Source: the human T2T-CHM13v2.0 reference genome, Homo sapiens
Reading direction: 5' to 3' (one strand)
Length of the DNA: 64,000 bases
NCBI RefSeq assembly: GCF_009914755.1
Contig: NC_060927.1
Below the pieces are notes generated by a model. The model did no database searches, was not told the DNA's origin, and was given only the letters and a program-made list of their open reading frames with translations. The translations under genes and the position numbers were made by a program. Of this stretch, positions 59,561 to 64,000 are shown one piece after another (the first letter of the stretch is position 1; each line of letters begins with the position of its first letter).

Positions 59561-61899
59561 CAACATCAACCCCACCCCACCATCCCATCCCTACCTAGGA
59601 GGAAGTGTGGCTTCAGTAGCAGTGATTTAGTCACGTTTTTAGGGGTGACATTTTCAAAAGAGATAAATATTATTAAGCACACGGGTGTAGACATTTATCT
59701 TTCTGTTTAAAGTGGGTACTTTTGGCTAAGGTCAGAATTCCTGGCCCCTTGGCCTTATAATATTGTGTTTCAGCTAGTACCCCAGTGCAACAATAACTTC
59801 TTAGCAGTATAGACAATGACTAAATAAAAGTTCATATAATTATGCAGAAAACGTAACCCATACCCATCACTCAAATAGGATAAAGCAAAAATATTTAGAT
59901 TTGCCAAGTCAACATGAGATGGTACCCACATTTCACAGAAAGGTTCTAAACTCAACCTTGTACTGCTTCTGTAGAGTTTGTATGGGTACAGAGGCACCAT
60001 TTACATCTTTAAGATTTAGGACCAAAACAGTGCAGAAAGAAAAACTTGTCTTTATTAAAATAAATATTAGATGAAACTCATTAGGCACCACCTATATGCC
60101 AGGACTATTGTAGACCAACAAAGGCTGAACTAGAGTGCACCTGGTTAAACAAAAAAAATGCGCCCCCACCCCAGGAAGTACAGAGAGGCTAAATATTTAA
60201 CATGGGATTTTGATATTAAACATTTTATACCAGGAATTTTATATCACTACAAATGCAACAAACTCAACAGGACTCCTTAGATTTCTGGCAATTTGTGTCT
60301 GTTCCTCACCACTACCCCAACATCTTGGAGGCCCTGGAGACACAATTATAAACAACACATCCTCTGCTCTCAGGTTCAACATCTGGAGATTTTTACACAG
60401 CCCTTATGACTTGTATGCACACCTTCTCCCTCACCTGCCTTCAGCGCATCCTCTGATTGACCCAGTTCTGAATAGCTCCTTGTAATTCTCATAGGTCATT
60501 TCTGTGTCTCTTCTCTTTCATCCCAGCTTGATCCACGACTGCTTCCAGGTTGTGGGCATGGATTTGCCCAGCACCTGTGCTCCCCTGAACCCCATCTGAC
60601 CCACTTTGAGCTCCCATACTTTGCTCCTGGGCATGCTTCCTGCTGGGCAAACACCTGGCTTGCCATTTGCTTGGTTTCTCTTGCAGCCTGGCTGCTCTTC
60701 TCACCCCCACCTCACCTCCCACCTCCCTGGGCCATAAGAGTGTGCACTTAAATCAGTATTTAGTTGTGGACATCCACGAGCATTTCACACAAAAATATTC
60801 CACTTTTTAAGCCAGGAAACAAAATGAAATCAAATACATGCTTAAAGGGTAATATATTCTTACAGTCTTTATCAGTTGAAATAAGAGATAAGTTTGCTCT
60901 TTTATCTTTATTTGAAATATTCAAACTTAAAGTTTCAGGAGATCTAAATAAATAACATGCTATTCAGATCACCACAGGCAGTAGAAAAGGACACTGTGTA
61001 AAACCCAGTTTGTAAATCTCCCAATAGTCAATTAGCATACCAATGTGAGCGATGAGTAGACCTTACAGCCTTTCCCAAGCAAACACAGTAATTAAAAACA
61101 AATTACAGTACAGCCTGGATGTGGTGCTTTACAATGTACCCCACCTGCCAACCAGCAGCTAAATTCATTCCAAGAATGTCTGGCCAATTAGCTGCTCCCC
61201 CATTGGGTAACTTGGGCTTCCTGTGTGAGCACCATTTGTGAGGCTCCACATTAGATTAGGCCTTTTGTTCTCAGAAGGCAGGAGATCTTCCAGGAGACTT
61301 GAGAGTGGGTCTCTATCTGGAAAAATTCTGCCTCAGCCAGAACATATATTCTTTGTACTTCACTTCACAAGAGGCTGGAGATATTCCAATCTCAACATCA
61401 GAATGGAATCTCTAGGTTCTAACAAGGAAATAATATTATTGCATATTTTTGCTACAGGTAATTGTAATTAGAAAAAGGAAAAAATCACACACTGGGTTTT
61501 GACATTTCCATCAAAGCCTCTTGGCAAAAAAAAAAATTCAAGTAAAATGTCTACTTTTTTCTCTCAGATAAAAATAAGTCCATGAAATCAGGACAAGTGA
61601 AATGTATTGGTTTGTCTTACAATTGGTTTTGTACATGTGTGTAGAAATAAAGAAGAATAGAATTAAAAAGGAAAATCCAGTGCTTGAATTTTACAGCTGA
61701 AAAAATTGAGACCCAAGGTTGAGAGAGGGAGAAGCAGAAGCAAAGCCTCACAGTTCTTTCCATTACACTATACTGTGAGTGAATTTATGTTTATGCAAAT
61801 ACTTATAATATGTATAGATTTCATGTATATAAACACAGGTGTCCAAATAGTTTTCCACATGAGTTTTTAGGTGAGATCATCATCTTCTGTAAACAGAGT

Positions 61900-62974
61900 T
61901 GTTCCTGGAAGGCAGGGACCCCAAACGGAGGGACCGGCTGAAGCCATGGCAGAAGAACGTGGATTGTGAAGATTTCATGGACATTTGTTAGTTCCCCAAA
62001 TTAACACTTTTATAATTTCTTATGCCTGTCTTTACTGCAATCTCTAAACATAAACTGTAAAGATTTCATGGACACTTATCACTTCCCCAGTCAATACCCT
62101 TGTGATTTCCTATGCCTGTCTTTACTTTAGTCTCTTAATCCTGTCAGCTGAGGAGGATGTATGTCGCCTCAGGACCATGTGATAATTGGGTTAACTGCAC
62201 AAATTGTACAGCATGTGTGTTTGAGCAATATGAAATCTGGGCACCTTGAAAAAAGAACAGGATAACAGCAATTGTTCAGGGAATAAGAGAGATAACCTTA
62301 AACTCTGACTGCTGGTGAGCCAGACGGAACAGAGCCATATTTCTCTTCTTTCAAAAGCAAATGGGAGAAATATCGCTGAATTCTTTTTCTCAGCAAGGAA
62401 CATCCCTGGGAAAGAGAATACACGCCTGGAGGTATAGGCCTATAAACAGCGCCCCCCCTCCGGGTGTGCCTGTCTCTTATGGTGGAGACTGCAGGGGTGA
62501 AAGAGACCCCAGTCTCCCATAGCGCTCCCAGGCTTATTAGGAAGAGGAAATTCCCGCCTAATAATTTTGGTCAGACCGGTTGCTCTCAAAACCCTGTCTC
62601 CTGATAAGATGTTATCAATAACGATGGTGCCTGAAACTTCATTAGCAATTTTAATTTCGCCCCGGTCCTGTGGTCCTGTGATCTCACCCTGCCTCCACTT
62701 GCCTTGTGATATTCTATTACCTTGTAAAGTACTTGATGTCTGTGACCCATACCTATTTGCACACTCCCTCCCCTTTTGAAAATTCCTAATAAAAACTTGC
62801 TGGTTTTTGAGGCTTGTGGGGCATCGCGGAACCTACCGACATGTGATGTCTCCCCCAGATGCCCAGCTTTAAAATTTCTCTCATTTGTACTCTGTCCCTT
62901 TATTTCTCAAGCTGGCCGATGCTTAAGGAAAATAGAAAAGAACCTACGTGAATATCAGGGCAGATTCCCTGATA
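61900..62974 (+). mobile_element. MER11A-like LTR (HERV-K11/HML-8), complete
   Basis: Starts tgtt..ggaag.cagggaccccaaacggagggaccggctgaagccatggcagaagaac. U3 tandem repeats, AATAAA at ~62788. Ends aacctacgtgaatatcagggcagattccctgata. Confidence 0.92.
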
Positions 62975-62985
62975 TCTGGCCCCCA

Positions 62986-63140
62986 TTTATGTTTAGAGAT
63001 CGCAGTAAAGAGAGGCATAAGAAATTATAAAAGTATTAATTTGGGGAACTAATAAATGTCCATGAAATCTTCACAATCCATGTTCTTCTGCCATGGCTTC
63101 AGCCGGTCCCTCCGTTTGGGGTCTCTGACTTCCTGCAACA
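62986..63140 (-). repeat. Inverted copy of the first 155 bp of the MER11 LTR (terminal inverted repeat)
   Basis: Reverse complement of 61900-62054, with 9 substitutions by manual comparison. Followed directly by CAGAGT, which also precedes the LTR. Confidence 0.95.
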
Positions 63141-64000
63141 CAGAGTCCAATAGCAAAGGATGTTGTTGATGGGAGCATTCTTATTTTAGGCCACAAGGTA
63201 AATGAGACCCCAATTATGTGGCTGTAGAATTTTTTTCTCTGTAAATTTGAAACATTTCATCACCCATTCAATAAGCATTTATTTAACAATGTCCATGTAC
63301 TAATCACATAGATAGTGAATCTCATGGCAAGAATAATAAGTAGACCTCAACTCTTGAGACAAAATCAATTATCACCAACTCATTTCTAGTGCTTGTGTTA
63401 AGGAGGATTCTGAGGAGCTATTTGAACTCAGAATAAAAAAAATGATTATGTATGATTTTCACTGACCATATTGAGTATAGGAATGGTAACACTGTGTTAG
63501 TTACATGGCATTTCTATGTAGTAGACTGTTCTTCTAGCTCCAATATTCCCTACAGAGTCTGTCTTCTCTGTTTCTGTTTAAATGTTTGCCTGAAGTTGTA
63601 CAAAAGGAGAGACTGTTTCTGTGTAATTGCTTCTCCTTTTTTTCCAACACAGAGAGAAGAAACGGAAGAATCATCCATGGAGTTAAGGTGAAAGCAGCAC
63701 AAATAGAGGAAAGTTTTAAAAAAATTGTTCACTAGGGAGGTATTTCCTGAATAGAACTTCCTAACTGCAGCTACAGACCATGTTAAAAGTGATTGATTTG
63801 CCTTAGCTACTGGCACAAAATATGGAGAGCATTTCAAAAAGGTTCTTTATAGTAAAACTTTGTTTTTCCTCTATGACTTATAATAGTGATTTATTGAGAA
63901 AATTCACCGTTTTCCAATGATAGATGCAGTCCAATCTTCCAGTTTATAACATTTTCTGAGTAACTTTATCAAATCAAGGAGTCTTTCTTCATCAAAATGA

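What the first reader, a model, noticed from the sequence alone, without database searches (positions are those of the whole stretch)
61894..63146. MER11 (HML-8) element integrated with two U3 ends: LTR + PBS stub + inverted U3, inside a perfect 6-bp TSD
Seen in sequence: CAGAGT (61894-99), a complete MER11 LTR (61900-62974), TCTGGCCCCCA (62975-85), the reverse complement of LTR nt 1-155 ending TGCAACA (62986-63140), then CAGAGT (63141-46). The arms differ at ~9/155 positions. Established: betaretroviral integrase makes 6-bp TSDs, HERV-K PBSs begin TGGCGCCCA (tRNA-Lys), and plus-strand strong-stop DNA is U3-R-U5 plus PBS. Inference: the right flank is a direct repeat, not an inverted copy of the left flank (which would read ACTCTG). 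So the structure existed before integration, and integrase used a U3 att site at both ends. A plausible origin is plus-strand strong-stop DNA that mis-primed from the PBS onto U3 (fold-back or aberrant second strand transfer). The result is a 1.24-kb retroviral mini-element with MITE-like terminal inverted repeats, not an ordinary solo LTR.
Basis: partly seen in the sequence, partly recalled or inferred. Interest (0 to 1): 0.85.

Follow-up and report, generated by a model that had tools for sequence, protein, structure and literature searches.

The report
HML-8 LTR with two U3 ends
A roughly 10-30-million-year-old retrovirus fossil on human chromosome 3 was pasted into the genome with the same viral end on both sides, which marks it as a rare by-product of faulty reverse transcription rather than an ordinary solo LTR.

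Summary
The window reads CAGAGT, then a full MER11C LTR (61900-62974), then TC plus 9 nt of the tRNA-Lys primer-binding site, then the reverse complement of LTR nt 1-155 (146 of 155 identical), then CAGAGT again in direct orientation.

Six-bp duplications are the norm for this family: 19 of 27 solo LTRs checked have perfect ones. A published hg19 repeat table lists both arms with the same spacing, so this is not an assembly artefact. An exhaustive scan found the 30-nt junction once in the genome, so there is no mobilised family.

The best reading is that integrase inserted an aberrant reverse-transcription product carrying a U3 end at both termini. It was probably made when plus-strand strong-stop DNA was joined 3'-to-3' to a second, 155-nt nascent plus strand.

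I found a second HML-8 element of the same topology at 12q21.31. An inverted LTR plus an 18-nt tRNA-type PBS replaces the 3' LTR, and the duplication matches 5 of 6.

The kind seems to be in print already (Hughes and Coffin 2002; I saw the title only). I therefore file this as a new member of a rare known kind. Orthologous primate loci could not be checked.

The parts
61894..61899 (.). left copy of the 6-bp target-site duplication (CAGAGT)
   Evidence: identical to 63141-63146 in direct orientation
61900..62974 (+). complete MER11C (HML-8) LTR, U3-R-U5, 1075 nt, with termini TGTT... and ...GATA
   Evidence: end-to-end alignment with other copies; same termini; hg19 table MER11C, new subfamily G4, cluster c12
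62975..62976 (+). TC dinucleotide that separates the U5 end from the PBS in all HML-8 5' LTRs examined
62977..62985 (+). first 9 nt of the tRNA-Lys primer-binding site (8 of 9 match). The last A could instead be the complement of U3 nt 156.
   Evidence: PBS of other loci; ARAGORN tRNA-Lys ctt copy in L103; nt 156 is T in 47 of 50 copies
62986..63140 (-). reverse complement of LTR nt 1-155 (start of U3), ending exactly at U3 nt 1 against the duplication
   Evidence: 146 of 155 identical to the left arm; median 95.5% to 50 other copies; hg19 table lists it as a 156-bp minus-strand fragment
63141..63146 (.). right copy of the 6-bp target-site duplication (CAGAGT)

Best explanation
This is a fossil of a single integrase-mediated insertion of an aberrant HML-8 (MER11C) reverse-transcription product that carried a U3 terminus at both ends.

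My inference is that its 3' end was joined 3'-to-3' to a second plus-sense strand whose 3' end lay at U3 nt 155/156, that is, a nascent strong-stop DNA. Each strand was then extended on the other. That gives a fully double-stranded 1.24-kb molecule whose two outer ends are both the polypurine-tract-defined U3 end.

Integrase then treated the two U3 ends as its pair of att sites and made the usual 6-bp staggered cut.

Shown: the anatomy, the duplication, the exact U3 termini, the single copy number, and a second element of the same topology.

Inferred: the strand-joining step, whether reverse transcriptase or host end-joining made the joint, and whether the molecule was this short when it integrated.

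No present-day function is indicated.
For: 1. Perfect direct 6-bp duplication at the outer edges of the composite. Six bp is the family norm: 19 of 27 perfect and 22 of 27 at least 5 of 6.

2. The right arm ends exactly at U3 nt 1, and the left part ends inside the PBS after the family-specific TC.

3. The arm differences are private to one arm or the other. The left arm is derived at nt 5, 13, 88 and 106, and also at nt 7 (a T found in 1 of 50 copies at a CpG site that varies G/A in the family). The right arm is derived at nt 17, 129 and 140. Nt 60 is a CpG site polymorphic in the family. States were tallied in 50 other copies. This fits one source sequence that diverged after insertion.

4. 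A second case lies at G000:C12:84079466-84087794.
- Gag, protease, RT, RNase H, integrase and env domains all lie on the minus strand.
- Its 5' LTR is on the minus strand. An inverted full LTR on the plus strand, plus TC and an 18-nt PBS, is joined to antisense env.
- The flanks are CCCGAC and CCTGAC: 5 of 6, the difference being a CpG transition.
- The two LTRs are 94.7% identical over 1081 nt and fall in the same published cluster, c14.
- The inverted copy has the tRNA-type PBS and the true 5' LTR has the genome-type PBS.
- The env acceptor site in two intact copies is partly complementary to the PBS 3' end: 5 Watson-Crick and 2 G:T pairs of 8.

5. The junction is unique: 1 hit at up to 3 mismatches in 30 nt, genome-wide. 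No second copy appeared among the 40 scored of 2762 candidates.

6. Both arms are present in hg19.
Against: - No orthologous or empty site could be examined, so the duplication is inferred from this one allele only.
- The PBS stub is only 9 nt with one mismatch. Its first 9 nt cannot tell a tRNA-templated PBS from a genome-templated one.
- Microhomology at the window's junction is at most 1 nt. Host end-joining is therefore as compatible as template switching.
- The 8-nt complementarity at the chr12 junction could be chance.
- An element that was longer at integration is not excluded.
- The search for further cases was not exhaustive. It covered only LTR-end-plus-PBS junctions within 1 mismatch of one 19-nt pattern, and some of those hits were not examined.
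Confidence: 0.7

Rival explanations
1. Longer at birth. The integrated DNA was a full-length or long element that already had two U3 ends, either like the chr12 case or as a provirus whose right end had been extended by PBS plus inverted U3. It was later reduced to 1.24 kb by an internal deletion or by LTR-LTR recombination. Integrase still used two U3 ends; only the 'mini-element' claim would fall.
For: The chr12 element shows that long U3-out/U3-out forms exist. Several other MER11 LTRs carry a PBS stub followed by a short U5-terminal stub inside a 6-bp duplication: L069 and L077 at 6 of 6, L062 at 5 of 6. Such loci could be solo LTRs derived from proviruses with aberrant right ends.
Against: This needs a second event. 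For the deletion version, one breakpoint would have to fall by chance inside the 18-nt PBS. Nothing in the sequence marks such an event.
Confidence: 0.15
2. Two-donor integration. The U3 ends of two separate viral DNA molecules were inserted together at one target site, and the two free inner ends were trimmed and joined by host non-homologous end-joining.
For: The junction has at most 1 nt of microhomology, which is typical of end-joining. The outer anatomy (two U3 ends, 6-bp duplication) would be the same.
Against: It does not explain why the left breakpoint falls in the PBS, just where strong-stop DNA ends. It also does not explain why the chr12 element's inverted LTR ends at exactly 18 nt of tRNA-type PBS.
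Confidence: 0.1
3. Post-integration rearrangement, or two independent MER11 insertions whose flanks match by chance.
For: None specific. MER11 copies are numerous: 2762 first-look candidates for the arm.
Against: - A chance 6 of 6 match at both exact ends is about 1 in 4096.
- No remainder of a second LTR lies on either side.
- A local fold-back duplication would invert the flank, which it does not.
- The arms share the family state at all but the 9 positions where they differ, and 8 of those 9 carry a state that is rare among the 50 other copies.
Confidence: 0.03
4. Assembly artefact (chimeric fold-back read).
For: None.
Against: Both pieces are annotated in hg19, an independent assembly, with the same spacing: a 1074-bp LTR, a 10-bp gap and a 156-bp fragment. 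The arms differ at 9 positions, unlike an artefactual perfect palindrome.
Confidence: 0.01

Closest known systems
[quoted passage not shown]
   Same: By its title, and by the way PMC3625200 cites it (for a mechanism of 'LTR inversion'), it describes an HERV-K-related element with transposon-like inverted ends. From recall only, it has inverted LTR sequence inside a short direct duplication, attributed to aberrant reverse transcription followed by integrase action.
   Different: The paper is not held. I saw only the title in a reference list. I recall it as concerning HML-2 rather than HML-8/MER11. I cannot exclude that its structure differs in detail, nor, with small probability, that it is this very locus.
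HERV-K124 (HML-2, human-specific; Shin et al. 2013, PMC3625200)
   Same: A 5' LTR followed by truncated 78-bp LTR pieces that are inverted relative to it. The authors invoke LTR inversion plus template switching (passages).
   Different: It is a different HERV-K group and holds two internal fragments. I did not examine its sequence, its duplication, or which LTR end is outermost.
HML-8 provirus 12q21.31 (listed in the HML8 census, PMC10194239)
   Same: Same family and same subfamily (G4). Same topology: both outer ends are U3, the inner joint is at the PBS, and there is a 6-bp direct duplication, 5 of 6.
   Different: It is 8.3 kb with gag-to-env retained, and its PBS is the full 18 nt. The census gives coordinates that fit the internal region plus one LTR, and its text has no occurrence of 'invert'.
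Ordinary MER11C solo LTR
   Same: Same LTR, same termini, same 6-bp duplication length.
   Different: In a solo LTR the right duplication abuts the U5 end. Here 166 extra nt (TC, PBS stub, inverted U3) lie between them.
MITEs / cut-and-paste DNA transposons
   Same: Terminal inverted repeats inside a short direct duplication. The DDE-type integrase chemistry is related (established knowledge).
   Different: There is no evidence of mobilisation: one copy in the genome. The repeats are retroviral U3, and the element has no way to be excised or copied.

Membership tests
MER11C / HERV-K(HML-8) LTR | Full-length alignment to other MER11C LTRs with the family termini | tested here: met
   1-1075 aligns to many copies at 89-94%; termini as in 29 other copies; published label MER11C, G4, c12
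MER11C / HERV-K(HML-8) LTR | 6-bp target-site duplication | tested here: met
   6 of 6, but around the composite rather than the LTR alone; family norm 19 of 27 perfect
Solo LTR (product of LTR-LTR recombination) | Duplication directly abuts both LTR termini | tested here: not met
   The 6 nt after the U5 end match the left flank at 1 of 6 (row L055). The matching copy lies 166 nt further on.
Provirus | Internal gag/pro/pol/env between two direct LTRs | tested here: not met
   Only 11 nt lie between the LTR and the inverted arm. The second LTR piece is inverted and 155 nt long.
Plus-strand strong-stop DNA derivative | U3-R-U5 followed by PBS sequence copied from the tRNA primer | tested here: inconclusive
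   LTR + TC + 9 nt matching the PBS at 8 of 9. The first 9 nt are shared by tRNA-type and genome-type PBS, so the template cannot be told. The chr12 relative does show the tRNA type.
Integrase-inserted element with two U3 att ends | Both outer termini are U3 nt 1, inside a direct duplication of the family's length | tested here: met
Integrase-inserted element with two U3 att ends | Empty pre-integration site with one copy of the 6-mer in an outgroup | not testable with these tools
   No primate genomes are held
Mobilised non-autonomous (MITE-like) family | Several copies sharing the same internal junction at different sites | tested here: not met
   The 30-nt junction occurs once at up to 3 mismatches, with 0 hits for the control. 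No second copy among 40 scored of 2762 candidates.

The most novel reading that the evidence does not exclude
HML-8 left a recurrent class of integrants derived from plus-strand strong-stop DNA: an LTR, a PBS or tRNA stub of variable length, and whatever supplied a second integrase end. That second end is either an inverted U3 (this locus; 12q21.31) or a 5-30-nt U5-terminal stub (at least five other loci, three of them with 5-6 of 6 duplications). If so, some 'solo LTRs' never were proviruses, and U3/U3 intasomes worked in the primate germ line. This may have been favoured because the MER11 U5 end carries a non-canonical TA where the inverted U3 end gives the canonical CA.
Probability: 0.3. 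Interest if true: 0.7.

Novelty: new member of a known kind. Interest (0 to 1): 0.5.

Why it matters
The locus is a natural record that a retroviral integrase can pair two U3 ends in vivo, and that dead-end products of reverse transcription can reach the germ line.

Together with the chr12 element and the PBS-stub LTRs, it gives sequence-level joints (PBS length, tRNA-type versus genome-type PBS, microhomology). Those joints constrain how plus-strand transfer fails.

Practically, repeat annotation splits such elements into unrelated fragments. Here they appear as MER11C on the plus strand and 'MER11B' on the minus strand. Censuses of solo LTRs, LTR-based dating and LTR enhancer screens therefore treat them wrongly.

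Tried and rejected
- **Gapped pattern.** I replaced it with the 30-nt junction scan.
- **Literature searches.** Searches for strong-stop/inverted/aberrant integration and for inverted-LTR phrases found no description of U3/U3 endogenous elements in the held library. One search, aimed at a recalled 1985 paper on defective retroviral DNA, found nothing useful. The precedent surfaced only through a reference list and cannot be read. Subramanian 2011 (PMC3228705) has no 'invert' in its text.
- **Supplements of the HML8 census.** They hold no chr3 entry for this locus.
- **Short 'MER11B G4' fragments in the hg19 table.** I pursued them as possible further inverted arms. The one checked (chr7:23414354, 156 bp) has only a same-strand neighbour and no facing LTR, so I dropped this line.
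- **C7:153243679 (L052).** It looked like an LTR plus PBS but is an ordinary solo whose 6-bp duplication happens to resemble a PBS.
- **L089 (C21) and other 1-mismatch pattern hits without a TGG(C/T)(G/A)CCC core.** L089 is not preceded by MER11-like LTR-end sequence in the 181 nt fetched. L063, L064, L066, L068, L071, L074-L076, L078 and L080 gave no LTR hit; L072 and L073 gave none either and were not displayed. About 13 further listed hits, plus the three 8p23 and one Y duplicates, were not examined.
- **LTR start of L087.** It was not found in the 91 nt fetched, so its duplication is untested.
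Full report
**Observation**

CAGAGT lies at 61894-61899. A MER11 LTR runs from 61900 to 62974. Next come TC and TGGCCCCCA (62975-62985), then the reverse complement of the first 155 LTR bases (62986-63140), then CAGAGT again (63141-63146).

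The repeat finder reports the arms as 155 nt, 94% complementary and 931 nt apart. A direct count gives 9 differences. The right flank is a direct copy of the left flank, not an inverted one.

**Family rules**

I fetched other MER11 copies from the window's own genome and found the following.
The 3' ends of 29 other copies stop at the same ...GATA.
- Twenty-seven full-length LTRs were neither followed by a PBS nor preceded by a polypurine tract. Of these, 19 have a perfect 6-bp duplication, 3 have 5 of 6 and 5 have fewer.
- In 16 HML-8 5' LTRs with the normal leader, the LTR is followed by TC and then a PBS beginning TGG(C/T)(G/A)CCCA.
- ARAGORN reads the 75 nt after one such LTR (L103) as a complete tRNA-Lys(ctt) on the opposite strand. 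That ties this PBS to tRNA-Lys by a tool rather than by recall.

The 11 nt after the window's LTR are therefore the start of the PBS region, matching 10 of 11 including the TC.

**Not an artefact, not a family**

The supplementary table of Chen et al. 2025 (PMC12273786; supplement passages and part 88 read) lists two entries in hg19:
- chr3:176281096-176282170, plus strand, 1074 bp, MER11C, new subfamily G4, cluster c12;
- chr3:176282180-176282336, minus strand, 156 bp, labelled MER11B, G4, cluster c17.

The same structure is thus present in an independent assembly, annotated as two unrelated fragments. The main text of that paper has no occurrence of 'inverted'.

An exhaustive pattern scan of the 3.1-Gb genome for the 30-nt junction, allowing 3 mismatches, finds only the window itself and 0 hits for the reversed control. 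A DNA search with the junction region found no second copy among the 40 scored of 2762 candidates. The element is single-copy, so 'MITE-like' describes its shape only.

**History of the arms**

I tallied the state in 50 other copies at the 9 positions where the arms differ.
- The left arm carries the rare state at nt 5, 13, 88 and 106. At nt 7 it has a T seen in 1 of 50 copies, at a CpG site that varies G/A in the family.
- The right arm carries the rare state at nt 17, 129 and 140.
- Nt 60 is a CpG site that varies in the family.

Each arm is about 95% identical to other copies (medians 94.5% and 95.5%). This is what two copies of one sequence, identical at insertion, would show after diverging in place.

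The Kimura distance is about 0.06 (5 transitions, 4 transversions). With a recalled rate of about 0.2% per million years per lineage, that gives roughly 15 million years, with a wide error from only 9 differences.

**A second case**

The search with the U5 end returned two facing hits 6 kb apart on chromosome 12. In the merged region:
- a full LTR on the plus strand, followed by TC and the 18-nt PBS TGGCGCCCAACGTGGGGC, abuts 6.1 kb of internal sequence;
- the open frames of that internal sequence are all on the minus strand and carry Gag p24, protease, G-patch, RT, RNase H, integrase and HERV-K env domains;
- the internal sequence ends at a minus-strand 5' LTR;
- the outer flanks are CCCGAC and CCTGAC, a 5 of 6 direct repeat whose one difference is a CpG transition (chance of at least 5 of 6 is about 0.005);
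- the two LTRs are 94.7% identical over 1081 nt and sit in the same published cluster, c14.

The element's true 5' LTR has the genome-type PBS, followed by the usual leader. The inverted LTR has the longer, tRNA-type PBS and no leader. That is what plus-strand strong-stop DNA, which copies its PBS from the tRNA, should carry.

The joint lies in env, about 830 nt upstream of where the 3' LTR begins in an intact copy (against L036). Two intact copies show at that point an 8-nt stretch that can pair with the PBS 3' end, with 5 Watson-Crick and 2 G:T pairs. This is suggestive, not decisive.

The HML8 census (PMC10194239; passages) lists a 12q21.31 provirus of 7.2 kb, minus strand, MER11C, shared with gibbon, 28.5 million years old. 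It has no occurrence of 'invert'.

**Mechanism**

Both elements read as two plus-sense strands joined 3' end to 3' end.
- One strand is strong-stop DNA, ending after 8-9 nt of PBS in the window and after 18 nt on chr12.
- The other is a plus strand whose growing end lay at U3 nt 155/156 (window) or in env (chr12).
- Each strand, extended on the other, yields a complete duplex whose two outer ends are the polypurine-tract-defined U3 end. This explains why both arms stop exactly at U3 nt 1.

A strictly intramolecular fold-back would give a hairpin with one double-stranded end only, so I prefer the two-strand version.

Who made the joint is not shown. Nt 156 is T in 47 of 50 copies, so the A at 62985 could belong to either partner. 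That leaves 1 nt of microhomology, compatible with template switching or with end-joining.

Integrase then paired two U3 ends. The MER11 U5 end is ...TA, not the canonical ...CA, in all 36 rows, whereas an inverted U3 end gives ...CA. This may have helped, but that is speculation.

**What cannot be settled**

- Whether the element was 1.24 kb when it integrated, or was a longer U3/U3 element reduced later.
- Whether two separate viral DNAs each gave one U3 end.
- No orthologous locus was available, so the empty site is untested.

**Context and novelty**

Shin et al. 2013 (PMC3625200; passages and reference list) describe HERV-K124, with truncated LTRs inverted relative to the 5' LTR. [quoted passage not shown] That paper is not held. 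I saw its title only, and I recall it as describing this kind of structure for an HERV-K element.

My own searches found no other description, but most subscription journals are not covered. I therefore rate the window's element as a new member of a rare, already described kind. What is added here is an HML-8 pair of cases and their joints.

**Function**

No function is indicated. In the published MPRA table, the LTR's frame-2 fragment is scored 'None' in both cell types (passage). The element lies in an intron of the predicted lncRNA LOC105374230, according to the annotation supplied with the task.

Noticed in passing
G000:C12:84079466-84087794 (L051+L054; hg19 chr12:84494877-84503194): An HML-8 provirus on the minus strand. 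In place of its 3' LTR there is an inverted full LTR plus an 18-nt tRNA-type PBS joined to antisense env. The direct duplication matches 5 of 6 (CCCGAC/CCTGAC). The census lists it as 12q21.31 without remark on the inverted LTR.
   Followed up: yes
L069 (C2:191996834), L077 (C5:164860565), L062 (CX:128610282), L061 (C15:89738550), L098 (CY:18577753 and its twin at 19141275): MER11 LTRs followed by TC, 8-15 nt of PBS and then a short copy (5 to about 30 nt) of the LTR's own U5 terminus before the flank. The duplications are 6 of 6 (L069 GATATG, L077 GCCATG) and 5 of 6 (L062); the other two are untested. These could be strong-stop-derived integrants, or solos from proviruses with aberrant right ends.
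   Followed up: partly
L103 (C11:54695314), L084 (C7:98371263), L087 (C7:12733117): MER11 LTRs followed by long antisense copies of tRNA-Lys(ctt). L103 holds a complete 75-nt tRNA by ARAGORN and lies in a provirus with env 4.6 kb downstream. L084 matches 48 of 54 and then an Alu flank that shares a few bases with the tRNA copy. L087 matches 45 of 57 and is then followed by a 10-nt U5 stub. This is read-through of the primer far beyond the usual 18 nt.
   Followed up: partly
36 MER11 LTRs in loci L005-L070: The MER11 U5 terminus is ...(G/A/T)ATA, that is TA rather than the canonical retroviral CA, while the U3 terminus is the canonical TG. The dinucleotide between U5 and the PBS is TC.
   Followed up: partly
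L056, L057, L058, L065, L092-L096, L100 and others: Most HML-8 proviruses carry a PBS that matches tRNA-Lys over only about 14 nt (one A missing, then a T-rich leader). A few loci carry the full 18-nt match. It is unexplained how the shorter form persisted through replication.
   Followed up: no
L070 (C3:22219882; hg19 chr3:22255541-22257447): A 5' LTR, a PBS and 8 nt of leader, joined directly to LTR nt 292 onward in the same orientation. This is a tandem LTR-plus-partial-LTR with the whole interior missing.
   Followed up: no
hg19 chr9:23388703-23389776 (supplement of PMC12273786): A 1028-bp minus-strand MER11C abuts a 47-bp plus-strand MER11 fragment at its U3 end. This may be another inverted-terminus oddity. 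The sequence was not examined.
   Followed up: no
window 61956-62138: An approximately 90-nt tandem duplication inside U3 (76-79% between units), present in the other copies too (secondary hits). The inverted arm ends 8 nt into the second unit.
   Followed up: no
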